Of a stretch of DNA of 64,000 nt, positions 8,323 to 30,091 are shown piece by piece. The DNA comes from Escherichia phage AV124. The first letter of the stretch is position 1, and each line of letters begins with the position of its first letter. A model generated the notes under the pieces. It worked only from the letters and a program-made list of their open reading frames with translations, searched no databases and was not told the DNA's origin. Where the stretch lies: sequence record OR352954; one strand, written 5' to 3'. The position numbers and the translations under genes are program-made.

Positions 8323-8517
8323 ATGATCCGCACAAAAATTCTTATCGCAGCATTGCTGCTATCTTCTCCGGTATTCGCGACTGTAAACACTCTTGATTTG
8401 GTTGATGAATACACCGACGGAAGTTCTAAAGTCTGCATCTACAGCGACGGTAATCGCACAGAATCTGTTCTGAAAGAAGGTGCTGGTTCTTGTCCAAGTA
8501 AGAAAACATTTCATTGA
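8323..8517 (+). CDS. small secreted protein
   Basis: N-terminal signal peptide MIRTKILIAALLLSSPVFA. Confidence 0.45.
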   Translation: MIRTKILIAALLLSSPVFATVNTLDLVDEYTDGSSKVCIYSDGNRTESVLKEGAGSCPSKKTFH

Positions 8518-8521
8518 GGCA

Positions 8522-12083: not shown

Positions 12084-12127
12084 AGAGTCGAGCATCCAAA
12101 CCAAAAGCAAGGAAGAAGCCAGTAGTT

Positions 12128-12622
12128 GTGCCATTAACACCGGAACTTTGGGTGAAAGATGCAAAGCAGATTGCTGCTTTCAGAAACAAATTGATTCTGG
12201 AGCAGCAAGGGTTAGATCCTATACTTGGCGAGCCACTTCGCAAGCCGTGCTTGGATCATGACCATTTCGAAGGTAAATGCAGAGGTGTCCTTAGTCAGTG
12301 CGTGAATACTTTTGAGGGATATGTCCTGAAGGCTTGGATGAAGTACGTTTCAGAGAATACTCAGACGTCGTTATCCACCGCTCTTAGAAATTTGGCAGAT
12401 TACTTAGAGCAAGACTTCAGTGGCTATCCGCTTCACGGCGGGTTTAAGAACGATATGTTGAAGTTTTTGAGAAGATGCACCAACGAGAAGATAATTGAAA
12501 GAGCTAAGGCTGACCTTGGCATAATTATCCCCGAAGGTACTCAGAAACAAGACAGCCTCTTGCTATACCTTACAGAGTTCGTCAAGCAGACGGAGGAAAA
12601 ACATGCCAAAGAAACCACTTAA
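12128..12622 (+). CDS. endonuclease VII-like (His-Me finger) junction-resolving nuclease
   Basis: CLDHDHFEGKCRGVLSQCVNTFEG matches T4 gp49 LDHDH...RGLLCNLCN...EG. Confidence 0.5.
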   Translation: MPLTPELWVKDAKQIAAFRNKLILEQQGLDPILGEPLRKPCLDHDHFEGKCRGVLSQCVNTFEGYVLKAWMKYVSENTQTSLSTALRNLADYLEQDFSGYPLHGGFKNDMLKFLRRCTNEKIIERAKADLGIIIPEGTQKQDSLLLYLTEFVKQTEEKHAKETT

Positions 12623-12806
12623 ATTCTTTTACAGAAATTGGCGAGGTAAGTGCGGATATCGTACTGTAGAAGAACCCGTCATGTGGTATGGGTCTACCCA
12701 GTATCACAAGAACTCTCAATGGTTTATTAGAGGTTATGATCTCGATAAACAAGACTTTAGAGATTTCGCTGTGAATGATATCATTGAATTCGTCCGAGAG
12801 GTGTAA
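12603..12806 (+). CDS. hypothetical protein
   Basis: ORF overlapping neighbours by short start/stop overlaps. Confidence 0.4.
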   Translation: MPKKPLKFFYRNWRGKCGYRTVEEPVMWYGSTQYHKNSQWFIRGYDLDKQDFRDFAVNDIIEFVREV

Positions 12807-13747
12807 TGCTACCTGTAGATAAAAAGATTATAGAACTTCATGAAAGCGGAATGAGTAACCGTGAAATTGCTCGCACATTCCTTGGAAAAGAGTCGAGAGA
12901 GTCATACATCCGTTTGGTTCTTAAGCGTCATAGCGCAGAGTCTACGCCTTTGACAAAGTCCTTAGTATCGGACTATAAGAAAGCTAAAATCCTGTTCTTA
13001 GACATCGAGACCGCACCGCTGAAGGGGCATCTCTGGAGTCTTTGGCAGAATGGAATTGGGCTGAACCAAATGGTTTCTGACTGGTACATGCTATCTTTCG
13101 TAGCCAAATGGGCTGACCAGGACGAGGTCATTTATCGCGATATCCGTGATAACTACGATAAGGAAAGTGATGCATCTATCCTTCAAGACCTGTGGGATTT
13201 GCTTGATGAAGCGGATTTTGTTGTTGGGCATAATGTCCGTAAGTTCGACATTAAGAAGATCAATGCTCGTTTCCTATTGAATGGAATGGATAAGCCATCA
13301 ACCTTCCGTATTATCGATACCATGCTTATCGCCAAAGCCCTGTTTGGATTCACCTCCAACAAGCTGGAATATCTGACCGATCGCCTGTGTACGAAATACA
13401 AGAAGTCTAAGCACACTAAGTTCCCAGGACACCTGCTGTGGGATGAGTGCTTGAAAGGTAACCCCGAGGCTTGGGATGAAATGGAAGAGTATAACAAGTT
13501 CGACGTTTTATCGAACCAAGAGTTGTACGAAATCTTCATGCCGTGGGATTCTCGCCTGCCTAACTTCGATCTTTATGTTGATGGTGTTCTTGATATGAGC
13601 GAGTGGATAGAGGATGGTTTCCATTACACCAATCTTGGCAAGTACCAACGTTACCGTCACAAGGTCACCGGGCAACAGCGCCGTGGGAGAACAAACCTCC
13701 TCTCGAAAGAGAAACGAGCGCAACTGCTGTCTAATATTTTGGTTTAA
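12806..13747 (+). CDS. DEDD-family 3'-5' exonuclease with N-terminal HTH
   Basis: Exo I FLDIET, Exo II GHNVRKFD, Exo III YNKFD; N-terminal SNREIAR HTH. Confidence 0.6.
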   Translation: MLPVDKKIIELHESGMSNREIARTFLGKESRESYIRLVLKRHSAESTPLTKSLVSDYKKAKILFLDIETAPLKGHLWSLWQNGIGLNQMVSDWYMLSFVAKWADQDEVIYRDIRDNYDKESDASILQDLWDLLDEADFVVGHNVRKFDIKKINARFLLNGMDKPSTFRIIDTMLIAKALFGFTSNKLEYLTDRLCTKYKKSKHTKFPGHLLWDECLKGNPEAWDEMEEYNKFDVLSNQELYEIFMPWDSRLPNFDLYVDGVLDMSEWIEDGFHYTNLGKYQRYRHKVTGQQRRGRTNLLSKEKRAQLLSNILV

Positions 13748-13752
13748 CTTCA

Positions 13753-13770
13753 AGGGCTTCGGCCCTTTTA
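13753..13770 (+). terminator. rho-independent terminator (GGGC-UUCG-GCCC + U tract)
   Basis: Hairpin gggcttcggccc followed by tttta. Confidence 0.5.
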
Positions 13771-13867
13771 AGGAGAGATTTTGGATATTAAGATTCCTGA
13801 ATTTGCAGATGATGATTGGTTGAGGGAGCAGTTTAATGCATTACAACAATATTCGGGGTACTGATGG

Positions 13868-14380
13868 GTGAAGATCTCTGAAAAAGACCTTTCCCTTCTG
13901 AAGAGGATATTCGAATATAACCCTGAAAATGGCACACTTGTATATAAGTGGTTACCGCGTAAAAAGGCGCTAATTGGCAAGACACTCTCTCCGAGTGTCT
14001 CAGCTTTTGGGTACAGACATGTTGTTATTGATGGTAGATGTTTTTACCACCATGTGATATGTTTTTGTATAGGGAATAATTGTACTCTTGCATCTTCTGA
14101 TGAGGTTGACCATAAAGACCTCTGCAAAGTAAATGATAAGCTTTGTAACTTACGTCTTGCAACTAAGTCTCAGAATATGAAAAACAGGCGTTGTTTTTCC
14201 AACAACAAAACTGGTCATAAGTGCATACAACTCTGCAAAAATGGCAAATACCGGGTTGTTGTTAGTTCAGATAAGAAAAAGACCCATGTTGGTTATTTTG
14301 ATGACCTTGAGAGCGCAATTTTAAGTAGAAACATAGCGTTGGGTGAACTTCACAAAGATTTTATTTTCGAGGAGGATTGA
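13868..14380 (+). CDS. HNH homing endonuclease with AP2 domain (GTG start)
   Basis: HNH_3-like DHKD...N..NLR and AP2-like GKYRVVV...HVGYFDDLESA. Confidence 0.6.
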   Translation: MKISEKDLSLLKRIFEYNPENGTLVYKWLPRKKALIGKTLSPSVSAFGYRHVVIDGRCFYHHVICFCIGNNCTLASSDEVDHKDLCKVNDKLCNLRLATKSQNMKNRRCFSNNKTGHKCIQLCKNGKYRVVVSSDKKKTHVGYFDDLESAILSRNIALGELHKDFIFEED

Positions 14381-14986
14381 TTGGACATATTGGTTTTAAA
14401 CGCCCCGCCACAGAGTGGTAAAGATGAGATCTCCGCATATCTGTGCAAAGGAAACCCAAACATCAATCACGAAGAGGTGAAGGAACTCCTTTTTGAGGTG
14501 GCTGTCCGTAGTGCCGGTATCTCTCGCGAGCTATGGGACTCTCTGTACACGCGTCGCTACAAAGAGAAACCAACACCTTACCTGATGATAGACGGCTTCT
14601 TTGTTTCTCCCCGCGAATGGATGATCCATTGCTCTGAGAAGGTAATCAAGCCGTTGTTCGGAAAGTCAGCATTCGGTAAAGCTGCTGTGGAAAAACTGAA
14701 GCAGACCTATGCCAACGATGAGGTGATTGTATTCTCTGATGGTGGTTTTGCTGAAGAAATCAAAGAGTTGTCAGATTATGCATACTCGACTGGTGGTGAA
14801 TTCTTCCTTGCACGTATCCACCGAAAAGGTTATGATTGGGGGAATGACAGTCGTAACTGGCTATACCTTGACGGTATCCGAGGTCATGAACGTGACTTCG
14901 ATAACAAAGAGGGCGGTATGATCGACTGCGCAGAAGAGATCCTTGAGTGGGCAAGAACAATTAGCTATGGAGAAGACGATGCGTAA
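14381..14986 (+). CDS. P-loop protein, possibly dNMP kinase
   Basis: NAPPQSGKDE resembles phage dNMP kinase SGKD P-loop; weak. Confidence 0.35.
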   Translation: MDILVLNAPPQSGKDEISAYLCKGNPNINHEEVKELLFEVAVRSAGISRELWDSLYTRRYKEKPTPYLMIDGFFVSPREWMIHCSEKVIKPLFGKSAFGKAAVEKLKQTYANDEVIVFSDGGFAEEIKELSDYAYSTGGEFFLARIHRKGYDWGNDSRNWLYLDGIRGHERDFDNKEGGMIDCAEEILEWARTISYGEDDA

Positions 14987-15581
14987 ACCGCTGAATATCG
15001 GTATTGATGTAGACCTGACCTTTGTGGATTCTGGTACTCCTTGGCTCCATTGGCTGGAGTTAGTATACGGCGTTAAGGCAGATGCTACCTTACCCCCGCT
15101 TAATCCACAGCGTAAGGTTTACTACAATCTTTCCAAGTATTTTCCCCCGGCTAAGGTAAATCAAGTCCCGCCGTTTGAGTTTTGGGAAGACCCGTACCTG
15201 TATGACAAGCTGAAGCCTTTACCTGGAGCTGTAGAAGCAGTTGCTACTTGGGCTAAAGCAGGCCATTTTAATCAGTTTGTATCTCACTGTAAAAAGGGCC
15301 ACTTTTCGTCTAAGGTGCGATTCTTAAAACGTGAGACAGAAGAGTTCTTCAGTCTTGAGCCAGGCTCAGGCCACGGATTCTATGCTACTAAAAACAAGGC
15401 TGGTATCAAGCTCGATGTCATCATTGATGACCGCAATGAGTTTCTGAACCAGTTCGGACCTGAAGTTATCAAGATTAAGTTTAAGACGCCATATGACCAG
15501 TCTGAAGATCTTAAGGTTTCTATCGATCTTGAAACTGATAATTGGGATGAGATTCGTGACTTTGTTATGGACATTTCCTAA
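14979..15581 (+). CDS. HAD-superfamily phosphatase (possible 5'-nucleotidase)
   Basis: HAD motif I IGIDVDLT near N-terminus. Confidence 0.45.
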   Translation: MRKPLNIGIDVDLTFVDSGTPWLHWLELVYGVKADATLPPLNPQRKVYYNLSKYFPPAKVNQVPPFEFWEDPYLYDKLKPLPGAVEAVATWAKAGHFNQFVSHCKKGHFSSKVRFLKRETEEFFSLEPGSGHGFYATKNKAGIKLDVIIDDRNEFLNQFGPEVIKIKFKTPYDQSEDLKVSIDLETDNWDEIRDFVMDIS

Positions 15582-15781
15582 TGAAAAGAAATAGATGTGA
15601 GGGCGGTGATTTCATCGCCCGTCAGGGTGAATGGTACGAAGTGTTTGATGAGAAAGATAATTTCATATACTCATTCAAAGCGACAAGTGACATGTGTAAG
15701 AATGTGCTTAATCGCTACTTGGTGTTCAAGGCAGATCTTGACCCAAATGTTAACTACAGAATTAAGAGGGTTGGAAAATGA
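15581..15781 (+). CDS. hypothetical protein
   Basis: ORF, ATGA overlap. Confidence 0.4.
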   Translation: MKRNRCEGGDFIARQGEWYEVFDEKDNFIYSFKATSDMCKNVLNRYLVFKADLDPNVNYRIKRVGK

Positions 15782-16095
15782 CAAAGAATGAAATGGCTGA
15801 ACACATCCGAACACAAGCAACGGATCGTGTCAATCGTGTGATCGAAGGTATGTTCCCAGGTACAGGCCTGACGGCAGACATCATGGGAATTGATGCTGAG
15901 TTTAATCAAGGTCTTTTTGATGACGTCTATTTGAACTTATTCTCTCTTCGCGAGTTGGAAGAGATCATTATTCCTCAGATAAAATACAAAGACCGCCTTG
16001 CTGAACTTGACCTGTTGGTTGAAACTGCGGTCGCTACCCGTATGGCTGAAAACCAAGACAAGATTATTGAGAAATTAGGAGCAATGAGTGAGTAA
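15778..16095 (+). CDS. hypothetical protein
   Basis: ORF, ATGA overlap. Confidence 0.45.
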   Translation: MTKNEMAEHIRTQATDRVNRVIEGMFPGTGLTADIMGIDAEFNQGLFDDVYLNLFSLRELEEIIIPQIKYKDRLAELDLLVETAVATRMAENQDKIIEKLGAMSE

Positions 16096-17119
16096 TTTGA
16101 TTTCCGTAAAAATTGTAGCTGATAGCATTTCCCCTTCTGGTGTTCGAATCACGACCTTCGAACTTGAATATCCACGAATAATCCATAGTGAGCTGATGAC
16201 TCACCGACTGTTGAGTCGGAATGCGATGAGCAGTCGTGCTATCCCGATCAATAAGATGATCGACCAAGTCCGTAGAAACCCGGCAATGCCTGTTAAGTTC
16301 GGTAAGAATCAGCCCGGAATGCAGGATGCTGGTGAGCACAATACCCCTATCACTGTTGTGAACATCCTGCCTGATGGAGAGAAGCACACAGAAACATACA
16401 CGGCTGAACAGTGGTGGCACAAAGCGGCTGTGAGTGCAAGCGTTTATGCTGATGGTTTTGCGGAGGCTGGTTATCATAAGCAGATCGCAAACCGTCTGTT
16501 GGAAGCATTCCAAAGAATGAAGACAATTGTCACCGCTACAGACTGGAATAACTTCTTCTGGTTGCGTGTTGACCCGGATGCTGACCCGACGATCTATGAG
16601 CTGGCTAAGGCAATGAAAGAGGCTAGCGATAACTCTATTCCAGACCCTCTTGAACCGGGACAGTGGCATACACCATACGTTGACCACGTTTATGGCTTTG
16701 AAGATATCGACGATAAAGAGTGTGCAGTATTTGAAGGTTATTGCGTTCTTGACGAAGAGAACAAACCTGTAATGCTGACTCTGGAAGAGGCTTTGGCTGT
16801 TTCCGCATCTTGTTGTGCTCAGGTGTCTTATCGTGTTCTAAATACGAGCAAAGAAAAGGCTCTGGATATCTACGGCAAGCTAGTCAGTGGTAATAAGGTT
16901 CATGCTTCTCCTTTTGAACATGTGTGTACCCCGATGGCTCATGCTGACCAGTTAAGTAGAACGGATTATGTTTTGTCTACTCAAGAGGTTAATCAAGAAA
17001 CCCACATGTGGGAAGAAGGAGTTACCCACGTTGACCGTAAAGGAAGATTCTGGAGTGGTAACCTTCGTGGGTGGGTGCAATTACGTCAATTAGTGCCTAA
17101 CAATTATGTTGAGGGTTGA
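16088..17119 (+). CDS. ThyX-like (flavin-dependent thymidylate synthase family) protein, divergent
   Basis: PRIIHSELMTHRLLSRNAMSSRA parallels ThyX RHR-X7-S signature but with THR; 343 aa, longer than typical ThyX. Confidence 0.45.
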   Translation: MSNLISVKIVADSISPSGVRITTFELEYPRIIHSELMTHRLLSRNAMSSRAIPINKMIDQVRRNPAMPVKFGKNQPGMQDAGEHNTPITVVNILPDGEKHTETYTAEQWWHKAAVSASVYADGFAEAGYHKQIANRLLEAFQRMKTIVTATDWNNFFWLRVDPDADPTIYELAKAMKEASDNSIPDPLEPGQWHTPYVDHVYGFEDIDDKECAVFEGYCVLDEENKPVMLTLEEALAVSASCCAQVSYRVLNTSKEKALDIYGKLVSGNKVHASPFEHVCTPMAHADQLSRTDYVLSTQEVNQETHMWEEGVTHVDRKGRFWSGNLRGWVQLRQLVPNNYVEG

Positions 17120-17531
17120 TGTATCTGGTTATGAGGGTATTTATCAGGTAGATACTGATGGTAATGTTTGGTCTCTTGAAAGGTGGGTTGAGAAAACCCG
17201 CCACGGAAAAAGAACAGCACCACAGCTTGTCCCTGCAAAGAAAAGAAAGTGTTCTGAGCATGGCACAGGTTATCTGACTGTTAGATTGGCAAATAAAGGT
17301 GTTATAAAGACTTTCAGAGTGCATAGGTTGATTGCTGAAGCTTTCCTACCTAACCCGCTTAACAAGCCCTTTGTGAATCATAAGGATGGCGATAAGAGGA
17401 ACAATAAGGACTCTAATCTTAAGTGGGTAACCGAGAAAGAGAATACCGAACATGCTATGGAAACAGGTCTGAAGCCTGAAAATCTGAGAGACCCCGTTAC
17501 TGGACGTTATGTAAGCGAACAACTGGAATAA
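17106..17531 (+). CDS. HNH homing endonuclease (NUMOD4 + HNH_3)
   Basis: GYEGIYQVDTDGNVWS, VHRLIAEAF, VNHKDGDKRNN..NL. Confidence 0.65.
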   Translation: MLRVDVSGYEGIYQVDTDGNVWSLERWVEKTRHGKRTAPQLVPAKKRKCSEHGTGYLTVRLANKGVIKTFRVHRLIAEAFLPNPLNKPFVNHKDGDKRNNKDSNLKWVTEKENTEHAMETGLKPENLRDPVTGRYVSEQLE

Positions 17532-17544
17532 ACGTAATTTCAGG

Positions 17545-17573
17545 TTGACAAAGATATCGTTAATTCGTATCTT
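17545..17573 (+). promoter_or_regulatory. sigma70-type promoter (TTGACA-N17-TATCTT)
   Basis: Hexamers followed by 5' UTR hairpin ggggcgcttttgcccc. Confidence 0.45.
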
Positions 17574-17628
17574 AGAAGCATATTAATTAGGGGCGCTTTT
17601 GCCCCTTGCTAGGCAGAATGGAGATTAC

Positions 17629-18108
17629 ATGAGTAAAGAAAAACGCAAGCCGCCCCAACATATTTCGGTCACCATTGACTTCCTGAGAACAGTCCCAGGG
17701 TTCGATGTCCAGAAAGATAATGACCTCCGCGCTGCCTTATACGCACTCGGTTTTCAGGTTACCGATAAAGATGGGAACCCGAAGCATGTAACAGTGCTTC
17801 AAAACAAAAATGTACGATGTGCCAATATGCCCTCAACGTATCGTAAGACAATGATTTTCGTTGGAGACATGCGCCCGGATTACAAGTATGCAAATATCTA
17901 TAATGGGGTAGAGATCCTTGACGTAGGTGTTTATTCAGGACGTGATATGGAATTCGTTCTTGATCTACCTTACGACATCCCCGTAACTGAAAAGGTTAAT
18001 ACTCGTAAGTACACCAAGCGCGGTGACCGACCAGAAGCATTTGAAATTACTTTCGACAGCGAAGCCGAAGCACGTCTGGGCAATATCTTTGGCCTGGAGG
18101 ATGAATGA
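17629..18108 (+). CDS. hypothetical protein
   Basis: GGAG RBS before ATG at 17629. Confidence 0.5.
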   Translation: MSKEKRKPPQHISVTIDFLRTVPGFDVQKDNDLRAALYALGFQVTDKDGNPKHVTVLQNKNVRCANMPSTYRKTMIFVGDMRPDYKYANIYNGVEILDVGVYSGRDMEFVLDLPYDIPVTEKVNTRKYTKRGDRPEAFEITFDSEAEARLGNIFGLEDE

Positions 18109-18335
18109 GTAAAGAAAAGACAAAGTGGAAAGACCGAGGCTTCGATGACAAACATCACTATGCTGGGTGGCTCTACTTTAATGATTTAACCGATGACAGT
18201 AAGATGTACGATGATGTTTACTATGATGAGTTTTCTGGTAAAATAGTTAACATCGTTGCGCCAGATCAAAACGAGAAAGACGATCAGGATGTTGACGAGG
18301 CAGATGATTTTTTGTCTCAATTTGAAGAAGAATAA
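18105..18335 (+). CDS. small acidic protein
   Basis: Asp/Glu-rich C-terminus; ATGA overlap. Confidence 0.45.
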   Translation: MSKEKTKWKDRGFDDKHHYAGWLYFNDLTDDSKMYDDVYYDEFSGKIVNIVAPDQNEKDDQDVDEADDFLSQFEEE

Positions 18336-18344
18336 GGGGAAAGT

Positions 18345-20657
18345 TTGATCAATACAGTTGTGAAGAGTGATGGCAGTGTGGTTCCATTTGAACCAGAACG
18401 TCTAAACAAGGCCGCTATCTTTGGTGATGACGGCAATGGTAACTGGTCGTACATCTCAATGGATGCATATAAGCGACTGTATGACGGCTGCACCACTCGT
18501 GAAGTTAACCAGGCATTGATCGACGCCTGTGTGAGTCGTAAAGACGAAGCCCATTCACGGATGGCTGGGCGCGTCCTGATTGGACAAATCTACAAGGAAG
18601 CTTTTGGTGGATTTAAGAAAATTCCAAGCCTTGCCGAGTTTTACCAGGACATGGTGACGCGTGGGTACTGGGAAGAAATGGGTTATACTGGGCCGGAGCT
18701 GTTAAGCTTTGATCAAGTCATTGACCACAGCAAGGACCTGAGTTATGGGTATGCTGTTCTGAAACAGTTCCGGGATAAGTATGGTATCAAAGATAACATC
18801 AACGATATCCTGTTCGAATCTCCTCAGATGATGTTTATGGGTATTGCTATGGCTGTTATGAAGAATATGCCATTATCCCGTAGAAAGAATGACGTCATCC
18901 GACTGTATACGTATCTCTCTGACCTTAAGATCAATGCACCAACTCCGTACCTGAATGGTCTGCGTACTGGACGTACAGGATACGCGTCCTGCTGCATCAT
19001 AAAGGCTGATGATACAGCGAAAAGTATTGGAGTTGCTCGTGAAGTAGCGTACACTATGACGGTAGCACAGGCAGGGATTGGTTATTACCTGTCCTCCCGC
19101 TCTATCGGCGATGGTGTTCGTGACAATACGATCAAACACATGGGTAAACTCCCGTATTACCGTGGAATTGATGTTGGTGTTAAGGAAAATCGTCAACAAT
19201 CCCGTGGTGGTTCTGCAACGGTGTCTTTCCTTGCGTTAGACCCGCAAGTTGAAGAACTGATGCGTCTGCGTAATCCGATGACGGTTACCTCAAAGCGTAT
19301 CAATACGATGGACTATTCGATTGGTGTCAACCACTCGTTCATGAATCGAGTAGCTAAGAATCTGGACTGGATGTTGGTGTCATATAAGGATGCTCCTCAG
19401 TTGCATGAGGGTATGTTCCGAATGACAATGCAGGAGTTTGATGCTGAGGTTGCCCGTGTAGCAGCAGATACTAAGATTCAAAAGACTTGGGTGAAGGCTC
19501 GTGATCTGGCAATGGAACTGATTACCCAACGTGCTGAAACTGGTCGTCTTTATGTTTACTGGCCTGACGAAATGAACCGTCATACGCCATTCCTTGAGAC
19601 AATTTACTCATCTAACTTGTGTCAAGAAATCTGTCTGCCAACAAAAGGGTATACAGATATGCGCAATATTTTCAACCCGACCATCGATGATGGTGAAGTT
19701 GCATTGTGCTTTATCGCCTCTCTGGTTGCTGGTCGTGTTTCCGAAGAAGAATACGAGGATGTTGCTTACTACACCGTCCTGATGATCGACAACGTTATGG
19801 ATATCATGGATTATCCGTATGAGAATATGAAGTACACAGCAGAATCTCGTCGTTCGATTGGTGTTGGCCTGACCAACCTTGCACACTACATCGCGAAACA
19901 CAAAGTCGCGTATGGTTCTCCTGAGAGCAAGCAGTTGGTTCACGATCTGGCAGAACTGCATAGCTTCAGTCTGCATAAGGCAAGTCTGCGACTGGCTAAA
20001 GAGCGTGGTGTTGCTCCGTGGATGAATAAGACTAAGTATCCGCAGGGTTGGTTGCCTATCGATACCTATAATAAGGCAGTTGATAGTGTTGTGAAGAATC
20101 CGAGCCTGAAGCAGGACTGGGAAACTTTGCGCCAGGAAATCATCGAAAATGGTGGTATCCGTAACAGTGTTCTGGAAGCTTATATGCCGAACGAAAGTTC
20201 ATCATTGGCTACCAACACAACAAATGGCCTGTATCCGGTACGTGACCATGTGATCTTCAAGAAATCCCCTCAAGGCTCTGTGCTGTTTATCGTGCCTGAG
20301 TATGAAGAGCTGAAGAAATATTACACGTCGGCTTGGGATATCGATACGAATGACTTGATTGATATCTATGCAATCATTCAGAAGTTCGCAGGGCAAGCAA
20401 TTAGTGCGGATCTTTACATCGACTATACCCAGTTGCCTGATGGTAAGATTTCCATGAAACAACAACTGGGATATCTGATCCGCGCCACGAAGATGGGGAT
20501 GAAGACATGGTATTACCTGAACTCCAAGGTTGGGGCTGGAGACTCCCTCACTGAGGAACTTCATGCTAAGGCAAAAGCTGAGGAAGAGACAAGAGCTGTT
20601 GCACCGTTTATCGCCGGGGATACTGAAGACCCTTATTGCGAAAGTTGTTCTTTATAA
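18345..20657 (+). CDS. nrdA: ribonucleotide reductase class I large subunit
   Basis: TTG start with RBS; SNLCQEICLP active-site motif; C-terminal CESC pair. Confidence 0.85.
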   Translation: MINTVVKSDGSVVPFEPERLNKAAIFGDDGNGNWSYISMDAYKRLYDGCTTREVNQALIDACVSRKDEAHSRMAGRVLIGQIYKEAFGGFKKIPSLAEFYQDMVTRGYWEEMGYTGPELLSFDQVIDHSKDLSYGYAVLKQFRDKYGIKDNINDILFESPQMMFMGIAMAVMKNMPLSRRKNDVIRLYTYLSDLKINAPTPYLNGLRTGRTGYASCCIIKADDTAKSIGVAREVAYTMTVAQAGIGYYLSSRSIGDGVRDNTIKHMGKLPYYRGIDVGVKENRQQSRGGSATVSFLALDPQVEELMRLRNPMTVTSKRINTMDYSIGVNHSFMNRVAKNLDWMLVSYKDAPQLHEGMFRMTMQEFDAEVARVAADTKIQKTWVKARDLAMELITQRAETGRLYVYWPDEMNRHTPFLETIYSSNLCQEICLPTKGYTDMRNIFNPTIDDGEVALCFIASLVAGRVSEEEYEDVAYYTVLMIDNVMDIMDYPYENMKYTAESRRSIGVGLTNLAHYIAKHKVAYGSPESKQLVHDLAELHSFSLHKASLRLAKERGVAPWMNKTKYPQGWLPIDTYNKAVDSVVKNPSLKQDWETLRQEIIENGGIRNSVLEAYMPNESSSLATNTTNGLYPVRDHVIFKKSPQGSVLFIVPEYEELKKYYTSAWDIDTNDLIDIYAIIQKFAGQAISADLYIDYTQLPDGKISMKQQLGYLIRATKMGMKTWYYLNSKVGAGDSLTEELHAKAKAEEETRAVAPFIAGDTEDPYCESCSL

Positions 20658-20664
20658 GTTGTAA

Positions 20665-20684
20665 GGGGCTTCGGCCCCGTTTTT
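20665..20684 (+). terminator. rho-independent terminator (GGGGC-UUCG-GCCCC + U tract)
   Basis: Hairpin ggggcttcggcccc followed by gttttt. Confidence 0.5.
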
Positions 20685-20695
20685 GAGGAGAGAAA

Positions 20696-21784
20696 ATGGC
20701 AGTTTTTAACGTAGAAAACACCGCACATAAGACTGGGGATTACCCACTGTTCCTTGGTCAACAGATGGGGATGTATGACTCCATCAATAAGAAGTACCCG
20801 CAACTATTTGATCTGTATAAAAAGCAGAAAGAACAGGATTGGTCAGAAGATGAAGTTGAACTGAGCCAGTCTATCACTGACTTTGCAACTTGCAGCAAAT
20901 CCACTTACGACGTCATGGTGCAGACCCTGATGTGGCAATGGGAAGCTGATAGCGTTGCAGCACAGTCTATCATCTGTCTGTTTGCACCCTTCATCACGAA
21001 TAGTGAACTGTTCGCCATGATGATGAAGCAATCAGAGATTGAAGTCTTACATGCTCTGACGTATTCTGATATTGTTCGCCAATGTCTGCCTAATTCTCGC
21101 CAGATCATTGAAGATATCCAGAACAACCAGGCAGTCCTTGAACGCTCTGGAGTCATTGTCAAATTCATGCGTGAATTAGAAATCCTCGGTGCTCGATACC
21201 GTATTGACCCGGACTCTGTTGACAAAGAAGAGATCCGTCGAGGAATTCTGAGAGCGATGTTCTCCCTGTTGGGTCTGGAAGGTATTGAATTCATCTCTAG
21301 CTTTGCCTGTACGTTCGCTCTTGCAGAACAGGGCGTCTTTGTCCAAGTAGGCCAGCTTGTGCAGAAAATTATGTTGGATGAGATGCTGCATACCAAGATG
21401 GATTTCGGGGTTATCGATATCCTTCTGAAAGACCCGGTATGGAAGGCAAGCTTTATCGCAATCAAACACGAGCTGAAAGCAATTCTGGATGAAGTTCGTA
21501 TCAATGAATATGGATGGGGCGATTATCTCTTTAGTGAAGGACGTGCGATCATCGGTTTGAACGCTCCGTTGCTGAAAGATTGGACTGACTGGAACTGTGC
21601 TCCGATCTACGATTACTACGGCATTGAAAAAGATTTCGTAGCACCAAAACGTGATCCTCTCCCGTTCATGGATGTTTGGATGAATCCTTCCAAGCAACAG
21701 AATGCGAATCAGGAAATGAGTAATACAGATTATAGGCTTAATGCTATAAACGACGACATAGGGGATGATACGTTTGATTTTTAA
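20696..21784 (+). CDS. nrdB: ribonucleotide reductase class I small subunit
   Basis: Two ExxH iron-ligand motifs (EVLH, EMLH); adjacent to nrdA. Confidence 0.8.
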   Translation: MAVFNVENTAHKTGDYPLFLGQQMGMYDSINKKYPQLFDLYKKQKEQDWSEDEVELSQSITDFATCSKSTYDVMVQTLMWQWEADSVAAQSIICLFAPFITNSELFAMMMKQSEIEVLHALTYSDIVRQCLPNSRQIIEDIQNNQAVLERSGVIVKFMRELEILGARYRIDPDSVDKEEIRRGILRAMFSLLGLEGIEFISSFACTFALAEQGVFVQVGQLVQKIMLDEMLHTKMDFGVIDILLKDPVWKASFIAIKHELKAILDEVRINEYGWGDYLFSEGRAIIGLNAPLLKDWTDWNCAPIYDYYGIEKDFVAPKRDPLPFMDVWMNPSKQQNANQEMSNTDYRLNAINDDIGDDTFDF

Positions 21785-22349
21785 TCTCGGTATTTGCGAT
21801 CTTCCCAGCAGGGACAAAGATGGTAAATTGACGCCCCACTATTCCAGATGGGTCAACATGTTAAGGAGGTGTTATGACCCTAAGTATCAGACAAGAAGAA
21901 ATTCTTATGCAGATACAACTGTTTGCCAAGAATGGTTGACATTCTCTAAATTTAAAGAGTGGATGGATCTTCAAGATTGGGAAGGAAAGGACTTAGATAA
22001 AGACCTTCTTGGGGATGGTACTATTTATTCACCATCTACGTGCGTATTCGTAACGCCATTAGTTAACCAGTTTACTAAAAGAAGCTCTGCATCTAGAGGC
22101 GACCAGCCTCTTGGTGTACATCTTAAAAGAAATGGCAGATACGGGTCTTGTATAAGGAAATATGGAAAGTTAGAGCATCTTGGATATTTCGAGAACGAGG
22201 AGGCTGCACATGTTGCTTGGCAAAGAGCCAAGATTGCTTATGGGAAGGAACTTTGTCACTTACAAACAGATGAGAGGTCTATCCTAGCGCTCACACGTTA
22301 CATTGCGAGGATAGAAGAAGACCTATTATTGAAAAGGAGAACAATTTGA
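21765..22349 (+). CDS. AP2-domain homing-endonuclease-like protein
   Basis: YSRWVNMLRRCY...CQEW N-terminal motif and AP2-like GRYGSCIRKYGKLEHLGYFENEEAAHVAW; sits between nrdB and glutaredoxin. Confidence 0.55.
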   Translation: MIRLIFNLGICDLPSRDKDGKLTPHYSRWVNMLRRCYDPKYQTRRNSYADTTVCQEWLTFSKFKEWMDLQDWEGKDLDKDLLGDGTIYSPSTCVFVTPLVNQFTKRSSASRGDQPLGVHLKRNGRYGSCIRKYGKLEHLGYFENEEAAHVAWQRAKIAYGKELCHLQTDERSILALTRYIARIEEDLLLKRRTI

Positions 22350-22609
22350 ATCTGAAGAATTCCACCTTCACCATTTATGGTAAGGATAACTGCTCACACT
22401 GCGTCCGTGCTAAGGAGTTTGCCATTGCAAACGGGATCGAGTATATCTACCTTACGCTAGGGAAGAATTATACCAAGGAAGAGCTGGTGGAGCAATGTGC
22501 CCCGGTTATTCCGCGCACCGTCCCGCAGATTTTCCGTGAGACGGACTCCTCTACGGAGTACATTGGGGGCGCTGACGAGTTCATTGCGTTTGTAAAAGCA
22601 AACAAATAA
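22346..22609 (+). CDS. glutaredoxin/NrdH-like redoxin
   Basis: CSHC CxxC motif near N-terminus; TTG start with AGGAG RBS. Confidence 0.6.
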   Translation: MNLKNSTFTIYGKDNCSHCVRAKEFAIANGIEYIYLTLGKNYTKEELVEQCAPVIPRTVPQIFRETDSSTEYIGGADEFIAFVKANK

Positions 22610-22620
22610 GAGGGTTTGTC

Positions 22621-24699
22621 GTGAAGGTTGTTAAAAGAGATGGACGTGTTGAAGATTACTCGGCTGAGAAAGTGACACGAGCGGTGAAAGCCGCTCTGTT
22701 AGCCTCGGGTCTTGACCAGGAAGTGGCTGATGAGAAGGCCCGTGGAATTGCTCAGAGAACCTTCAGCCTCTTCATGGCGACCCCTGTACGAAGTGTGGTA
22801 GATTTTCACCGGGAGGTTGAAAACCTCCTGATGGAAGACCCTGATCTTCGTGACGCTGCTCGCTGTTACATAGAATACCGTCATGACCGTGACAACGCTC
22901 GTGAAGGAAAAGGAAAACTGTATGCAGACATCACTGGATTCTTGGATCAATCGGCTGAAGAGTTTACCCGCGAGAATGCCAATAAACCAAGTTCCATCGT
23001 AAACACGCACAGGGACCTCTTAGCGGGGATTTTGAGTAAGCATGTGGCATTGACCCAGATACTTCCCAAAAACCTCTCAGAATGGCATACAAGCGGCTAT
23101 GGGCACATCCATGACCTTGATTACCTGGTAAGCCCTCTGACGAACTGTTGCCTGGTGAACTATCGGGACATGTTAGAGAACGGGTTTAAGATCGGTAATG
23201 CCCAGATTGAGAAACCAAAATCAATCGGTGTGGCTACCACGGTCTTGACCCAAATCATCCAGGCGGTTGCCTCAAGTCAGTATGGTGGGCAGACCTGCGC
23301 CCATATTGACGAGGGACTCAAGCAATACGTCGAAATGAGCTTCATGAAGAACGTGAAGCAGTACCGAAGTCACCGCAATGCATACGGCCCGACCAACAAG
23401 TTGGTGTACGATGCGATGCAGACCCTGATCTACCAGGTGAATACACTGATGAGCGTCAACGGTCAATCGCCGTTCATTACCATCAGTTTGGGGCTTGACA
23501 CCTCCATGTTTGGGCGTATGATTACTGCAAACTACTTGAAAGTCCACAAAGAAGGGCTTGGGAAGGACAAAGTAACCCCGGTATTCCCGAAGGTTGTGTT
23601 CTTCCTGCAAGAAGGTGTGAACATGAACCCGGAAGACCCGAATTACGATCTGAAACAGTTGGCTATGGAATGTTGTGTAGAGCGAATCTACCCGGACTTC
23701 ATCTCTGTCCCACTGAATAAGGAAGTCACTGGGTCAGCGGAAGGCAAGGTCACGAGTATGGGTTGCCGATCATTCTTGTCTAAATTCACCACGGAAAATG
23801 GTGAAAAGTACGACGGAAGGTTCAACCTGGGTGTTGTGTCGGTGAATCTGCCGATGATTGCTGCCGAAGCGAAGCAGAAAGGCGAGAGATTCTTCCCACT
23901 GCTCCGTTATCACATGGACATGGCCTATGAAGCGCATATGGTTCGTGTGAAACGGCTGATGGATGTGAAGGCATCTCAAAACCCGACTCTGTTCATGGAA
24001 GGAGCGCTGGCCCGGTTGAGACCTGATGAGCCGATCAGTAAGCTGTTCTTCAACGGTTATGCATCGATCAGCATCGGATATGTCGGCCTGGCGGAGGCTG
24101 TGGACATCCTCAACGGCAAAGAGGACAAGGAATATGCTATGGGAATCCTCGGGTACATGAAACTGGTGTGCGATGAGTACAAAGCCATGACGAACCTGTC
24201 TTTCAGCCTTTATGGGACGCCTGCGGAGAGCTTGTGCTACCGCTTTGCCACCAAACTGAAAGAAAAGTTCCCTAACTTCATAGAGAGGGATTACCTGACG
24301 AACTCTTTCCACCAACCTGTCTGGGTGCACAGCGATCCTTTCAGTAAGTGGGACTACGAATCGGGCTTTGCAAACATCAGTAATGGTGGAAACATTGGAT
24401 ATGTGGAAACTGCCAATTTGCGTGACAACTTGCTGGCTCTTGAATCCCTGATCGATTATGGGTACAAGAAGATTCCTTACTTCGGAATCAATCAGCCTGT
24501 GGATCAGTGTCTTAAATGCGGTCACAGTGGTGAGTTTACCGCCACGGCGAAGGGTTTTGAATGCCCGGCCTGCGGAAACCACGAAGAGGGGACGCTTTCG
24601 GTTATCCGTCGTGTATCTGGGTATTTATCTGCACCCAATTCTCGACCTTATAACAAAGGGAAGATGCAGGAAGTGGTTCAGCGGGAGAAACATCAGTGA
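22621..24699 (+). CDS. nrdD: anaerobic ribonucleoside-triphosphate reductase
   Basis: Glycyl-radical motif RVSGY and C-terminal CxxC...CxxC zinc ribbon; GTG start. Confidence 0.85.
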   Translation: MKVVKRDGRVEDYSAEKVTRAVKAALLASGLDQEVADEKARGIAQRTFSLFMATPVRSVVDFHREVENLLMEDPDLRDAARCYIEYRHDRDNAREGKGKLYADITGFLDQSAEEFTRENANKPSSIVNTHRDLLAGILSKHVALTQILPKNLSEWHTSGYGHIHDLDYLVSPLTNCCLVNYRDMLENGFKIGNAQIEKPKSIGVATTVLTQIIQAVASSQYGGQTCAHIDEGLKQYVEMSFMKNVKQYRSHRNAYGPTNKLVYDAMQTLIYQVNTLMSVNGQSPFITISLGLDTSMFGRMITANYLKVHKEGLGKDKVTPVFPKVVFFLQEGVNMNPEDPNYDLKQLAMECCVERIYPDFISVPLNKEVTGSAEGKVTSMGCRSFLSKFTTENGEKYDGRFNLGVVSVNLPMIAAEAKQKGERFFPLLRYHMDMAYEAHMVRVKRLMDVKASQNPTLFMEGALARLRPDEPISKLFFNGYASISIGYVGLAEAVDILNGKEDKEYAMGILGYMKLVCDEYKAMTNLSFSLYGTPAESLCYRFATKLKEKFPNFIERDYLTNSFHQPVWVHSDPFSKWDYESGFANISNGGNIGYVETANLRDNLLALESLIDYGYKKIPYFGINQPVDQCLKCGHSGEFTATAKGFECPACGNHEEGTLSVIRRVSGYLSAPNSRPYNKGKMQEVVQREKHQ

Positions 24700-25169: not shown

Positions 25170-25310
25170 ATGAGTAAGAAAGCACTGCGTAAGGCATATA
25201 CCAAGGAACTGGCTCTGGAACTGCGTGGCAAAAAGCCGAAGAATAAGCGTTATTCTGATGAAGAACTTCAGCAACTTGCAGCAGACGCTGCCGCTCGCGG
25301 GGGTCACTAA
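25170..25310 (+). CDS. small basic protein
   Basis: 46-aa ORF not in track; abuts nrdG stop; TAATG overlap with next gene. Confidence 0.3.
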   Translation: MSKKALRKAYTKELALELRGKKPKNKRYSDEELQQLAADAAARGGH

Positions 25311-28501: not shown

Positions 28502-29408
28502 CGACAAAAAGAATTACTTTGGTTTCGGTGGGGGTTTTGGTGGGGAAGGTTCTTTCTGTTACCCAATGCCATCCCATGAGCATGTAATCTACATCCACGA
28601 TTTGGATTATATGGAAGATCACTTTAATAAATTACAACAAATTCGCCAAGCCAATCCCGACGATATGGTGCGTGTGATCATCAATACCTATGGTGGTCGT
28701 GTTGATATTGCAATGGCTTATGTGAGCGCGATGCGTGAGAGTCAAGCAACCGTGGTGACCCATGCAGAGGGGCAGGTGTGTTCTGCTGGGACAATCTTGT
28801 GGTTGGCTTGCAAAGAACGCACTGTAGCCCCGATGACGGAATTCATGTTCCACAACTATCAGGGAGGGGCATATGGAGACGGGGCCAATATCTATACCCA
28901 GGTGCTGTTCTACAAACAGCATTTCGATCGTTTAATCGATTATTTCTACAAGGGTGTTTTGACTGATGGGGAGATCAATACAATCAAGGGTGGTGGGCAG
29001 GTATGGCTGGATGAAGTGGAGATTACTAAAAGAACCCGTGCAGTAATCCTGGATGATAAAAATATCGAAAGGATGAAGTCAGGTAAAAATCCTATCGTAA
29101 ACCCCACTGGAAAACAGGCGGAGAAGGTTGCGGAGGAGAGTGTTGTTGGGACTGACGCTGAGAAATCAATTTGCTTGAAAGTGCATGTTGATGGGGAGGT
29201 TTTCTCTTTTGATGTAAGGACTCTAAAAGCCTCGGATTTCGATTCCTTTAATATTGACGAGATACAGAGTATTCTGTCACAGGTTGGTGCCTTGGCCCAA
29301 GGTGAGGAAGAACCTTTGGAGATTACCTCTCGTGATCGTAAGGCACTTATCGAAGCTATGCTTACAGCAGCTCAAGTAATAGTTGATACATACGGAGAAG
29401 ACGCATAA
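28491..29408 (+). CDS. ClpP-like (S14/S49) serine peptidase
   Basis: INTYGGRVDIAMA, GQVCSAG (Ser), MFHNY (His) in ClpP-like order. Confidence 0.5.
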   Translation: MQNNDKKNYFGFGGGFGGEGSFCYPMPSHEHVIYIHDLDYMEDHFNKLQQIRQANPDDMVRVIINTYGGRVDIAMAYVSAMRESQATVVTHAEGQVCSAGTILWLACKERTVAPMTEFMFHNYQGGAYGDGANIYTQVLFYKQHFDRLIDYFYKGVLTDGEINTIKGGGQVWLDEVEITKRTRAVILDDKNIERMKSGKNPIVNPTGKQAEKVAEESVVGTDAEKSICLKVHVDGEVFSFDVRTLKASDFDSFNIDEIQSILSQVGALAQGEEEPLEITSRDRKALIEAMLTAAQVIVDTYGEDA

Positions 29409-30091
29409 TGAGTGCTCCCCTGAAGAAAAAGGGGGAGCGTAGGGATTATGACGTCTATGAGACTCCTGAATGGGCCGTACAGGCCCTTTTGGATGTTATC
29501 CCTATCAACCCATCATGGACATACCTAGAGCCTTGTAGAGCGTCTGGGAGGTTCTATAATCACATGCCTCTCGGTTCAGCTTGGGGTGAAATTCGTGAAG
29601 GTGTAGATTATCTCAGTACCGATTATCCAAATCATGTTGATTGCATCATCACTAATCCTCCATATTCGTTGGCCCAAGAGTTTGTGACAAAAGCTCTTGA
29701 CGATGCCGATGTTGTGATTATGCTTTTGCGGTTAGGATTCCTTGAGAGCATGAAACGCTGGGAATGGTGGCAAGAGAATCCTATCACCAGTTTGATGGTG
29801 TTGTCTCAAAGACCATCGTTTACTGAAGATGGTAAAACAGATGGAAGTGGCTACGCTTACTTTGTTTGGGATAGAAAGAACAGGCTGAATCTTAAGCCAT
29901 TTTATTTTTTGGAGGGACAAGACGATGAGTGCCGCAAGCAAGATGCGAGGGATCGCAGAAATCGCAAACGCAGCAATCCCGCCCGAGATGAACCAGTTGT
30001 ACGACAACATGGTGGAGGGGATTCACCAATGTGCCAAGAAGGGACTTTTGGGGATGGGGATGGTGATAGATCTGCCGGATCACCTGCTTGA
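29408..30091 (+). CDS. N6-adenine DNA methyltransferase (C-terminal boundary uncertain)
   Basis: Motif I LEPCRASGRF, motif IV IITNPPYS; low-complexity Arg/Asp/Gly tail overlaps next ORF. Confidence 0.55.
   Translation: MSAPLKKKGERRDYDVYETPEWAVQALLDVIPINPSWTYLEPCRASGRFYNHMPLGSAWGEIREGVDYLSTDYPNHVDCIITNPPYSLAQEFVTKALDDADVVIMLLRLGFLESMKRWEWWQENPITSLMVLSQRPSFTEDGKTDGSGYAYFVWDRKNRLNLKPFYFLEGQDDECRKQDARDRRNRKRSNPARDEPVVRQHGGGDSPMCQEGTFGDGDGDRSAGSPA

What the first reader, a model, noticed from the sequence alone, without database searches (positions are those of the whole stretch)
14381..17119. Nucleotide-metabolism cluster with a divergent, extended ThyX-like protein
A dNMP-kinase-like P-loop protein, a HAD phosphatase and a 343-aa ThyX-like protein lie upstream of the RNR operon. 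The ThyX-like protein keeps the S..N..S.R spacing but has THR in place of the canonical RHR and is ~100 aa longer than typical ThyX. With an N6-adenine methyltransferase elsewhere in the window, this could be an ordinary thymidylate synthase or a pyrimidine-modifying enzyme feeding DNA hypermodification.
Basis: partly seen in the sequence, partly recalled or inferred. Interest (0 to 1): 0.5.

Follow-up and report, generated by a model that had tools for sequence, protein, structure and literature searches.

The report
Rearranged phage ThyX-type thymidylate synthase
This is the ordinary nucleotide-supply gene block of a Klebsiella rV5-like phage; its thymidylate synthase belongs to a very common phage ThyX lineage whose sequence segments are re-ordered and whose active site lacks two residues thought essential, and nothing points to exotic DNA bases.

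Summary
Window 14381-17119 encodes a dNMP-kinase-like protein, an NT5C/HAD deoxyribonucleotidase-like protein, two small unknown ORFs and a 343-aa ThyX-like protein. It lies upstream of nrdA/nrdB/grx/nrdD in a Mydovirus-like Klebsiella phage (Vequintavirinae).

The extra length is not an added domain. The canonical N-terminal segment (T. maritima 21-60, including the flavin/folate-stacking His in HxSPFEH) sits after the core, at residues 238-279. Re-ordering the columns in silico restores one collinear alignment (E 1.9e-15, against 4e-7 and 4.5e-6 for two pieces).

Ser88, Arg90, Arg147, Arg174 and His53 equivalents are invariant. Arg74, Arg78 (the 'THR'), Tyr91 and Arg165 are replaced family-wide.

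The hypermodification idea is not supported. This is the only thymidylate synthase candidate in a related complete genome, which has no ThyA, DHFR or annotated modification genes. Vequintavirinae are reported as exceptionally restriction-sensitive.

Most likely it is the phage's flavin-dependent dTMP synthase. This is untested biochemically. Interest is modest.

The parts
13868..14380 (+). HNH endonuclease ORF (170 aa) flanking the cluster upstream
   Evidence: PHROG 99 HNH endonuclease E 2.3e-40; Pfam HNH_3 sub-threshold
14381..14986 (+). dNMP-kinase-like P-loop protein (201 aa)
   Evidence: PHROG 139 E 4.3e-37; motif NAPPQSGKD; no Pfam, NCBIfam or PDB hit
14979..15581 (+). HAD-superfamily NT5C-like 5'(3')-deoxyribonucleotidase. 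The ORF is open from TTG 14943; ATG 14979 is the likely start by comparison with relatives
   Evidence: Pfam NT5C 25.7 bits against GA 24.8; mitochondrial deoxyribonucleotidase PDB 1mh9 E 1.1e-3; DVDLT and IIDDR motifs; start inferred
15581..15781 (+). small ORF, 66 aa, unknown function
   Evidence: PHROG 4903 E 4e-33; conserved in relatives
15778..16095 (+). small ORF, 105 aa, unknown function; overlaps the thyX start by 8 nt
   Evidence: PHROG 14529 E 2e-49; no homologue next to ThyX-like genes of ICP1, K5 or Paxi
16088..17119 (+). ThyX-like flavin-dependent thymidylate synthase, 343 aa, of the re-ordered phage subfamily
16148..16642 (+). ThyX core (residues 21-185), equivalent to T. maritima ThyX 61-199. 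Contains T38-H39-R40...S48-S-R50, R136 and R160
   Evidence: hhalign prob 87-91%; Pfam covers residues 22-185 = profile 59-190
16277..16402 (+). family-specific insert (residues 64-105) carrying the PxxWGKNQxGMQ motif (G77 and M78 invariant), followed by a variable loop
16799..16924 (+). relocated segment (residues 238-279), equivalent to T. maritima ThyX 21-60. Contains S247 and H272-A-S-P-F-E-H278
   Evidence: hmmsearch against PDB in two non-collinear pieces; hhalign prob 93-95%; column re-ordering test
16928..17116 (+). C-terminal tail (residues 281-343) with conserved W..G.TH.D...WSGNxRGWxQxRQL (R333 invariant). In this window it has a different evolutionary origin from residues 1-280
17106..17531 (+). 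HNH/NUMOD4 homing-endonuclease-like ORF overlapping the thyX stop
   Evidence: Pfam HNH_3 E 3.6e-9, NUMOD4; PHROG 59 E 1e-38
18345..21784 (+). class Ia ribonucleotide reductase nrdA (18345-20657) and nrdB (20696-21784)
   Evidence: ORFs; annotation of the syntenic genes in relatives
22346..24699 (+). glutaredoxin (22346-22609) and anaerobic RNR NrdD (22621-24699)
   Evidence: Pfam Glutaredoxin E 8e-8; NRDD E 5e-162, Gly_radical, ATP-cone
29408..30091 (+). putative N6-adenine DNA methyltransferase (227 aa, NPPY motif)
   Evidence: translation; sub-threshold EcoRI_methylase and Dam hits; annotated as DNA methyltransferase in relatives

Best explanation
The block is the deoxynucleotide-supply module of a lytic Vequintavirinae (Mydovirus-like) Klebsiella phage. 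The 343-aa protein is the phage's only thymidylate synthase: a flavin-dependent (ThyX-type) enzyme that methylates dUMP to dTMP using FAD, NAD(P)H and methylene-tetrahydrofolate. The dNMP-kinase-like protein would then phosphorylate dTMP and other dNMPs, the RNRs supply deoxyribonucleotides, and the NT5C-like phosphatase would trim dNMP pools. The protein belongs to a very large phage lineage of ThyX with three distinguishing features. (a) The canonical N-terminal helical segment, which carries the flavin/folate-stacking histidine (HxSPFEH), is encoded after the catalytic core instead of before it. (b) A conserved PxxWGKNQxGMQ insert and a conserved C-terminal tail are added. (c) The canonical Arg74, Arg78, Tyr91 and Arg165 are replaced by Ala/Ser, Thr, Ala and Thr, presumably compensated by lineage-specific invariant residues (R30, K131, H194, R333 and others). 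Shown here: the fold, the segment re-ordering at sequence level, the residue pattern, the distribution and the genomic context. Inferred: the catalytic activity, the substrate, the compensation and the roles of the kinase and the phosphatase.

For: Family membership: Pfam Thy1 scores above its gathering cutoff; PHROG 85 'thymidylate synthase' E 4.7e-108.

Re-ordering: the family profile hits T. maritima ThyX in two non-collinear pieces. hhalign aligns q21-185 to Tm61-199 and q238-279 to Tm21-60. After moving the columns, one collinear alignment to Tm20-200 appears with E 1.9e-15 and prob 98.5%. Against PDB the E-value improves from 3.1e-5 to 1.3e-10.

Residues in 129 diverse members: S88>S48 128/129, R90>R50 129/129, R147>R136 128/129, R174>R160 129/129, H79>H39 129/129, H53>H272 129/129, E58>E277 121/129, H59>H278 128/129, S30>S247 129/129.

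Inteins: these are inserted in family members exactly at the conserved motifs (H33|S34, R40|L41, L42|S43, S48|S49, H272|A273, near R160), as expected for functionally critical sites.

Context: the gene lies next to RNR here and in Pakpunavirus K5, and near nrdA in ICP1. There is no ThyA, canonical ThyX, DHFR or Dut in the window or in a complete related genome, and that genome has a single annotated thymidylate synthase. The absence of DHFR fits ThyX chemistry (established knowledge; PMC9931769).

DNA of relatives: it behaves as ordinary DNA (PMC8594841; PMC7344957).
Against: No member of this subfamily has been assayed, as far as my searches show.

The protein fails the NCBIfam thyX equivalog cutoff (35.4 against 87.9 bits).

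Four residues described as conserved or critical in canonical ThyX are missing family-wide. Arg78 stabilises the FADH- N1/C2=O and contacts dUMP. Tyr91 is called 'strictly conserved' and critical for activity. Arg74 binds the dUMP phosphate. Arg165 binds the FAD phosphate. These roles are taken from PMC11940539 and PMC6514825.

Confidence: 0.72

Rival explanations
1. The ThyX-like protein makes a modified pyrimidine nucleotide (for example a hydroxymethyl or other C5 adduct) that, together with the kinase and the phosphatase, feeds DNA hypermodification.
For: The active site is remodelled: Tyr91 (proposed general acid and lid) and Arg78 are lost. The trio of kinase, dNMP phosphatase and TS-like enzyme resembles the nucleotide-pool rewiring of base-replacing phages (general knowledge). 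ThyX chemistry passes through an exocyclic methylene intermediate that could in principle be trapped (PMC8989533).
Against: The family occurs in 1035 phage records across many genera. These include E. coli Vequintavirinae, reported as exceptionally RM-susceptible with no effective protection, and CB7, whose DNA is cut by BglII, SspI and BamHI. Known thymidine hypermodification pathways start from a ThyA-family hydroxymethylase, and none is present. No glycosyl-, amino- or phosphotransferase modification genes are annotated in a complete related genome. If this enzyme did not make dTMP, the phage would have no thymidylate synthase of its own.
Confidence: 0.05
2. The lineage is a ThyX-derived enzyme with a different substrate or cofactor use (for example another phosphorylation state or sugar, as in the UMP/dUMP methylase PolB, or another reductant). 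On this reading it is not an equivalent of canonical dUMP-specific ThyX.
Against: The genomic logic points to dTMP supply: it is the sole TS candidate, it is linked to RNR, and there is no DHFR. Lineage-specific invariant basic residues could simply replace the missing arginines from new positions. There is no positive evidence for another substrate.
Confidence: 0.15
3. The protein is a degenerate, catalytically inactive ThyX relic kept for a nucleotide-binding or structural role.
For: It lacks residues called critical in canonical ThyX.
Against: About 19 positions are invariant across 40 diverse members, and the catalytic Ser/Arg set is 128-129/129. The family has about 5000 clusters. Inteins target its motifs.
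Confidence: 0.04

Closest known systems
Canonical flavin-dependent thymidylate synthase ThyX (Pfam PF02511 Thy1, TIGR02170; T. maritima TM0449, M. tuberculosis, H. pylori, PBCV-1 A674R)
   Different: Segment order is changed: Tm21-60 is encoded after Tm61-199. About 100 aa longer, with a new insert and tail. Arg74, Arg78, Glu86, Tyr91, Asn163 and Arg165 are replaced family-wide. Scores 35 bits against the 88-bit equivalog cutoff. tblastn with Tm ThyX does not detect it at all.
PolB, the ThyX-like UMP/dUMP C5-methylase of polyoxin biosynthesis (PDB 4p5a)
   Different: PolB is collinear with ThyX (E 3.7e-34 to Tm ThyX) and belongs to an antibiotic gene cluster, not a phage dNTP module.
ThyA-family phage dUMP/dCMP hydroxymethylases (T4 gp42, SPO1-type, ViI/M6-type), the entry enzymes of known pyrimidine hypermodification
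   Same: Both are phage-encoded C5 one-carbon transferases acting on pyrimidine dNMPs, often next to dNMP kinases.
   Different: Unrelated fold and mechanism. No ThyA homologue is present here. Known thymidine hypermodification uses the ThyA-type enzyme (PMC8989533).
Intein-containing ThyX genes (bacterial and mycobacteriophage ThyX inteins)
   Same: Relatives of this protein carry inteins with C...HN|C/S junctions and LAGLIDADG domains in active-site motifs.
   Different: The window's gene has no intein. Instead a free-standing HNH gene abuts its 3' end.
T4 gp1-type dNMP kinase and NT5C/mdN 5'(3')-deoxyribonucleotidases
   Same: P-loop xSGKD motif and PHROG 139 for the kinase. NT5C Pfam hit above cutoff, DxDxT motif and an mdN PDB hit for the phosphatase.
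   Different: Both are very divergent. The kinase has no Pfam, NCBIfam or PDB sequence hit. Substrates are unknown.

Membership tests
ThyX / flavin-dependent thymidylate synthase | ThyX (Thy1) fold | tested here: met
ThyX / flavin-dependent thymidylate synthase | Pfam PF02511 above the gathering threshold | tested here: met
   35.9 bits against 24.8, but only profile positions 59-190 of 191 are matched, to residues 22-185.
ThyX / flavin-dependent thymidylate synthase | NCBIfam TIGR02170 thyX equivalog cutoff | tested here: not met
   35.4 bits against a cutoff of 87.9.
ThyX / flavin-dependent thymidylate synthase | ThyX motif RHR(X)7S-x-R: first Arg (Tm Arg78), which contacts the flavin N1/C2=O and dUMP | tested here: not met
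   Thr38 here; Thr in 124 of 129 family members. Role taken from PMC11940539 and PMC6514825.
ThyX / flavin-dependent thymidylate synthase | Rest of the ThyX motif: His79, Arg80, Ser83, Asn85, Ser88, Arg90 | tested here: met
   H39 129/129, R40 106/129, S43 115/129, N45 120/129, S48 128/129, R50 129/129.
ThyX / flavin-dependent thymidylate synthase | Strictly conserved Tyr91 (lid / proposed general acid) | tested here: not met
   Ala51 in 129/129 members. Role taken from PMC11940539.
ThyX / flavin-dependent thymidylate synthase | Nucleotide-binding Arg147 and Arg174 | tested here: met
   R136 128/129, R160 129/129.
ThyX / flavin-dependent thymidylate synthase | Flavin/folate-stacking His53 within HxSPFEH | tested here: met
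   H272-A-S-P-F-E-H278; H272 129/129, H278 128/129. The motif lies in the C-terminal part of the chain.
ThyX / flavin-dependent thymidylate synthase | Collinear domain order (N-terminal helices before the core) | tested here: not met
   Two non-collinear alignments. A single alignment appears only after re-ordering the columns.
ThyX / flavin-dependent thymidylate synthase | Homotetramer with active sites formed by three subunits; bound FAD | not testable with these tools
   Only monomer prediction is available and no coordinates are returned.
ThyX / flavin-dependent thymidylate synthase | dUMP to dTMP activity with CH2THF and NAD(P)H; thyA complementation | not testable with these tools
   No experimental report for this subfamily was found.
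Phage pyrimidine hypermodification pathway | ThyA-family dUMP/dCMP hydroxymethylase as the entry enzyme | tested here: not met
   tblastn with E. coli ThyA finds nothing better than E 2.3 in the window or in complete relative OR472445.
Phage pyrimidine hypermodification pathway | Post-replicative modification enzymes (5-hmdU DNA kinase, glycosyl-, amino- or pyrophosphoryl-transferases) | tested here: inconclusive
   None is annotated in the complete related genome, but many ORFs there are hypothetical and were not searched individually.
Phage pyrimidine hypermodification pathway | Virion DNA resistant to restriction, or containing a non-canonical base | not testable with these tools
   The literature on relatives points the other way: PMC8594841 and PMC7344957.
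T4 gp1-type dNMP kinase | P-loop xxSGKD and family profile match | tested here: met
   NAPPQSGKD at residues 7-15; PHROG 139 E 4.3e-37. No Pfam or PDB support.
NT5C 5'(3')-deoxyribonucleotidase (HAD) | Pfam NT5C above cutoff and the DxDxT catalytic motif | tested here: met
   25.7 bits against 24.8; DVDLT motif; mdN E 1.1e-3. This is a marginal score.

The most novel reading that the evidence does not exclude
The ThyX-like proteins of rV5-like, phi92-like, ICP1, Pakpunavirus, N4-like and phiCbK-like phages form a distinct, sequence-permuted ThyX lineage. Its active site works without the 'essential' Arg78 and Tyr91. Either it uses a different set of residues (and possibly a different oligomer) for the same reaction, or it carries out a different flavin-dependent pyrimidine-nucleotide reaction or takes a different substrate.
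Probability: 0.15. Interest if true: 0.7.

Novelty: new variant of a known kind. Interest (0 to 1): 0.35.

Why it matters
For phage biology the cluster is routine: it is a self-contained dNTP supply module. The ThyX-like protein is more interesting for enzymology. ThyX is an antibacterial drug target, and its mechanism is argued largely from a few canonical enzymes. A very abundant natural lineage lacks the Arg that stabilises reduced flavin and the 'strictly conserved' Tyr, and encodes the His-bearing segment at the other end of the chain. Such a lineage would be a natural test of which residues are truly required. It also shows that automated 'equivalog' models miss it: the protein scores 35 bits against the 88-bit cutoff. 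If it is simply a thymidylate synthase, the practical consequence is small, amounting to better annotation and no evidence for modified DNA in these therapeutic-candidate Klebsiella phages.

Tried and rejected
1. I first read the 520-680 aa relatives with 'two stretches' as tandem duplications that might explain a permutation by duplication. They are single genes interrupted by inteins, so they give no evidence for a duplicated ancestor.

3. I looked for a conserved small partner protein next to the ThyX-like genes of ICP1, K5 and Paxi and the window. None was found.

4. Neighbourhoods of distant metagenomic members: the contigs were too short to be useful.

5. A relative annotates a 'GTP cyclohydrolase II', which could have meant flavin supply. 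The window homologue (8480-9031) is a NADAR-domain protein.

6. The promoter/terminator scan of 12000-25500 gave no more sites than shuffled sequence.

7. phmmer of the single protein against PDB found nothing, and tblastn with Tm ThyX found nothing. Only profiles and structure reveal the relationship.

8. Literature searches for ThyX plus hypermodification, permutation, ICP1 or Vequintavirinae gave only routine annotations.
Full report
**What the window is**

The region 14381-17119 is 88-91% identical at DNA level to Klebsiella phages K23PH08C2, KNP2, KpS8 and Seu621. These are Vequintavirinae of genus Mydovirus, with genomes of about 145 kb. All genes from about 160 to 41900 are on the + strand and tightly packed. 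This is a lytic myovirus replication and nucleotide-metabolism arm.

**Checking the observation**

The ORFs are exactly as described.
- 14381-14986 encodes a 201-aa protein with a T4-gp1-like P-loop (NAPPQSGKD). It has a strong PHROG 'dNMP kinase' match (E 4e-37) but no Pfam, NCBIfam or PDB sequence match.
- 14943/14979-15581 encodes a HAD protein with DVDLT and IIDDR motifs. It just passes the Pfam NT5C threshold (25.7 against 24.8 bits). It weakly matches human mitochondrial 5'(3')-deoxyribonucleotidase (E 1e-3).
- Two small conserved ORFs of unknown function follow, at 15581-15781 and 15778-16095.
- 16088-17119 encodes the 343-aa ThyX-like protein. Pfam Thy1 gives E 8.5e-9, and PHROG 85 'thymidylate synthase' gives E 4.7e-108.
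- The motif is T38-H39-R40-L-L-S43-R-N45-A-M-S48-S-R50.
- Downstream lie an HNH/NUMOD4 endonuclease ORF, two small ORFs, nrdA, nrdB, another endonuclease-like ORF, glutaredoxin and nrdD.

**What the 343-aa protein is**

It is also very divergent.
- phmmer of the single sequence finds nothing in the PDB.
- tblastn with T. maritima ThyX does not find the gene.
- It scores 35 bits against the 88-bit cutoff of the NCBIfam thyX equivalog model.
- The Pfam match covers only profile positions 59-190, so the first third of the canonical domain appears to be missing.

**Where the 'missing' third went**

A profile of the family hits T. maritima ThyX in two pieces that are out of order. Profile positions 138-182 align to the C-terminal part of ThyX. 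Profile positions 222-272 align to ThyX residues 19-67 (native numbering).

I verified my T. maritima sequence as identical to PDB 1kq4. I then collected 120 canonical ThyX sequences and ran profile-profile alignment of 129 family members against them.
- Query 21-185 aligns to Tm 61-199 (probability 87-91%).
- Query 238-279 aligns to Tm 21-60 (probability 93-95%).

These two canonical stretches are contiguous in ThyX and swapped in the phage protein. When I re-ordered the alignment columns (1-14, 232-279, 21-190), a single collinear alignment to Tm 20-200 appeared. It has E 1.9e-15 and probability 98.5%, against 4e-7 and 4.5e-6 for the separate pieces. The same re-ordered profile improves the PDB hit from E 3.1e-5 to 1.3e-10, and one stretch now runs straight across the artificial junction.

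The extra ~100 aa therefore has four sources.
- The relocated alpha1-alpha2-HxSPFEH segment, preceded by a beta-hairpin (residues ~196-279).
- A family-specific insert (64-105) carrying the near-invariant PxxWGKNQxGMQ motif.
- A conserved C-terminal tail (W..G.TH.D..WSGNxRGWxQxRQL, R333 invariant).
- Loss of the canonical helices from between the first two strands.

**Active-site residues**

I mapped residues onto T. maritima numbering and counted them in 129 diverse members.

Retained:
- S30>S247 (129/129)
- H53>H272 (129/129)
- T55>S274
- E58>E277
- H59>H278
- H79>H39 (129/129)
- R80>R40 (106/129)
- S83>S43
- N85>N45
- S88>S48 (128/129)
- R90>R50 (129/129)
- R147>R136
- N169>N155
- R174>R160 (129/129)

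Replaced throughout the family:
- R74>Ala/Ser
- E86>Ala
- Y91>Ala (129/129)
- N163>Thr/Ser
- R165>Thr (126/129)

The literature assigns the following roles. Arg78 stabilises the anionic reduced flavin at N1/C2=O and contacts dUMP. Tyr91 and Ser88 are 'strictly conserved' and critical. His53 stacks on flavin and folate (PMC11940539). The RHR motif and the Arg165 equivalent bind the FAD phosphates, the Arg74 equivalent binds dUMP, and the Tyr forms a lid over C5/N5 (PMC6514825).

So the base-binding and His/Ser/Arg core is intact. Several phosphate- and flavin-contacting residues have been exchanged coherently. Presumably lineage-specific invariant residues (R30, K131, H130, H194, R249, R333, M78) take over; this is inference.

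**Independent sign that the motifs matter**

The 520-680 aa relatives are not tandem repeats. They are intein-containing genes, with classic Cys...His-Asn|Cys/Ser junctions and Intein_splicing and LAGLIDADG domains. The inteins are inserted at H33|S34, R40|L41, L42|S43, S48|S49, next to R160, and at H272|A273. Inteins characteristically sit in catalytically essential motifs. One of these sites is the relocated HxSPFEH motif.

**Distribution and context**

The family has 5037 clusters at 50% identity (1716 at E<1e-30). It occurs in 1035 phage records: Escherichia 284, Pseudomonas 243, Vibrio 89 (rows shown are ICP1), Klebsiella 51, Caulobacter 41, and also Stenotrophomonas, Flavobacterium and others. 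Almost all are annotated as (FAD-dependent) thymidylate synthase.

It sits directly upstream of RNR genes in Pakpunavirus K5 and a few kb from nrdA in ICP1, as it does here.

A complete related genome (OR472445) has one annotated thymidylate synthase, which is this gene. It has no annotated DHFR, dCMP deaminase, dUTPase or base-modification enzymes. Local tblastn with E. coli ThyA, FolA, Dut and Tm ThyX finds nothing in that genome or in the window. A ThyX-type enzyme without DHFR is the expected pairing (PMC9931769).

**Hypermodification**

Three lines of evidence argue against it.
- E. coli Vequintavirinae and relatives are described as 'exceptionally susceptible' to RM systems, lacking effective protection (PMC8594841).
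- Certrevirus CB7 DNA is digested by BglII, SspI and BamHI, with a ClaI pattern consistent with Dam methylation only (PMC7344957).
- Known thymidine hypermodifications begin with a ThyA-family hydroxymethylase (PMC8989533), which is absent here.

The NPPY methyltransferase explains at most m6A. I therefore rate the hypermodification reading at about 5%.

**Most likely mechanism**

The proposed pathway has five steps.
- Host-derived and RNR-derived deoxyribonucleotides provide dUMP, through host Dcd/Dut (inference).
- The ThyX-like enzyme methylates dUMP to dTMP with FADH2 and CH2THF, regenerating THF.
- The gp1-like kinase phosphorylates dTMP and other dNMPs.
- Host NDK completes the route to dTTP.
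- The NT5C-like phosphatase probably buffers dNMP pools; its role is the least certain.

The steps shown here are homology, fold, residue conservation and context. Activity and substrates are inferred.

**Comparison and novelty**

The gene is a routine member (up to 90% identical) of a family already annotated in over a thousand phages. As posed, the finding is ordinary.

The re-ordered segment layout and the family-wide loss of Arg78 and Tyr91 make the lineage a distinct variant of ThyX rather than an equivalog. I found no paper describing this, although my searches were limited. That is why I rate interest as modest (0.35) rather than low.

Noticed in passing
window 16928-17531: The thyX gene is mosaic. 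Residues 1-280 are 98-100% identical to the closest database protein (P0001), but residues 281-343 are only 30-69% identical to it and 89-94% identical to other lineages (P0002, P0050). The breakpoint lies just after the HASPFEH motif and next to the free-standing HNH/NUMOD4 endonuclease ORF (17106-17531) that overlaps the thyX stop. This looks like a homing-endonuclease co-conversion tract.
   Followed up: partly
proteins P0128, P0139, P0141, P0142, P0158, P0186, P0188, P0196, P0200, P0208, P0212, P0217, P0227, P0234, P0241, P0260, P0270: Metagenomic relatives of 520-680 aa carry inteins (some with LAGLIDADG domains) at six or so different sites in the conserved motifs of this ThyX lineage. 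One site is the relocated HxSPFEH motif.
   Followed up: partly
window 8480-9031: This ORF is a NADAR-domain protein (Pfam E 1e-34). Its homologue in Klebsiella phage Seu621 is annotated 'GTP cyclohydrolase II', which appears to be a misannotation.
   Followed up: partly
window 22621-24699: An anaerobic ribonucleotide reductase NrdD (ATP-cone, glycine radical) follows glutaredoxin. At this position Seu621 and Iguana_ER37 have only small ORFs and the endolysin gene, so the nrdD insertion is variable among close relatives.
   Followed up: no
window 13868-14380, 17106-17531, 21765-22349: Three endonuclease-like ORFs are interspersed among the nucleotide-metabolism genes. Two are clear HNH genes; the third, between nrdB and grx, has no Pfam hit. 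This is typical selfish-element load of this phage group.
   Followed up: partly
window 59108-60651: A 356-aa ORF corresponds to a gene annotated 'thymidylate kinase' in relative OR472445, but it has no Pfam support and no similarity to E. coli Tmk. It is followed by a weak HD-domain phosphohydrolase.
   Followed up: partly
locus L002-L003 (OR472445): Relatives encode an NAD+ salvage set (NMN adenylyltransferase, PnuC-like transporter, nicotinamide phosphoribosyltransferase, PRPP synthetase) and a Sir2-like protein (Sir2 homologue at window 1894-2670). This could bear on NAD(P)H supply for a flavin-dependent thymidylate synthase.
   Followed up: no
window 16328-16402 (residues 81-105 of the ThyX-like protein): A variable loop is about 11 aa longer here and in P0001/P0002 than in other Mydovirus proteins, with 24-32% identity in this stretch against 89-95% on either side. 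This accounts for 343 aa against 332 aa.
   Followed up: no
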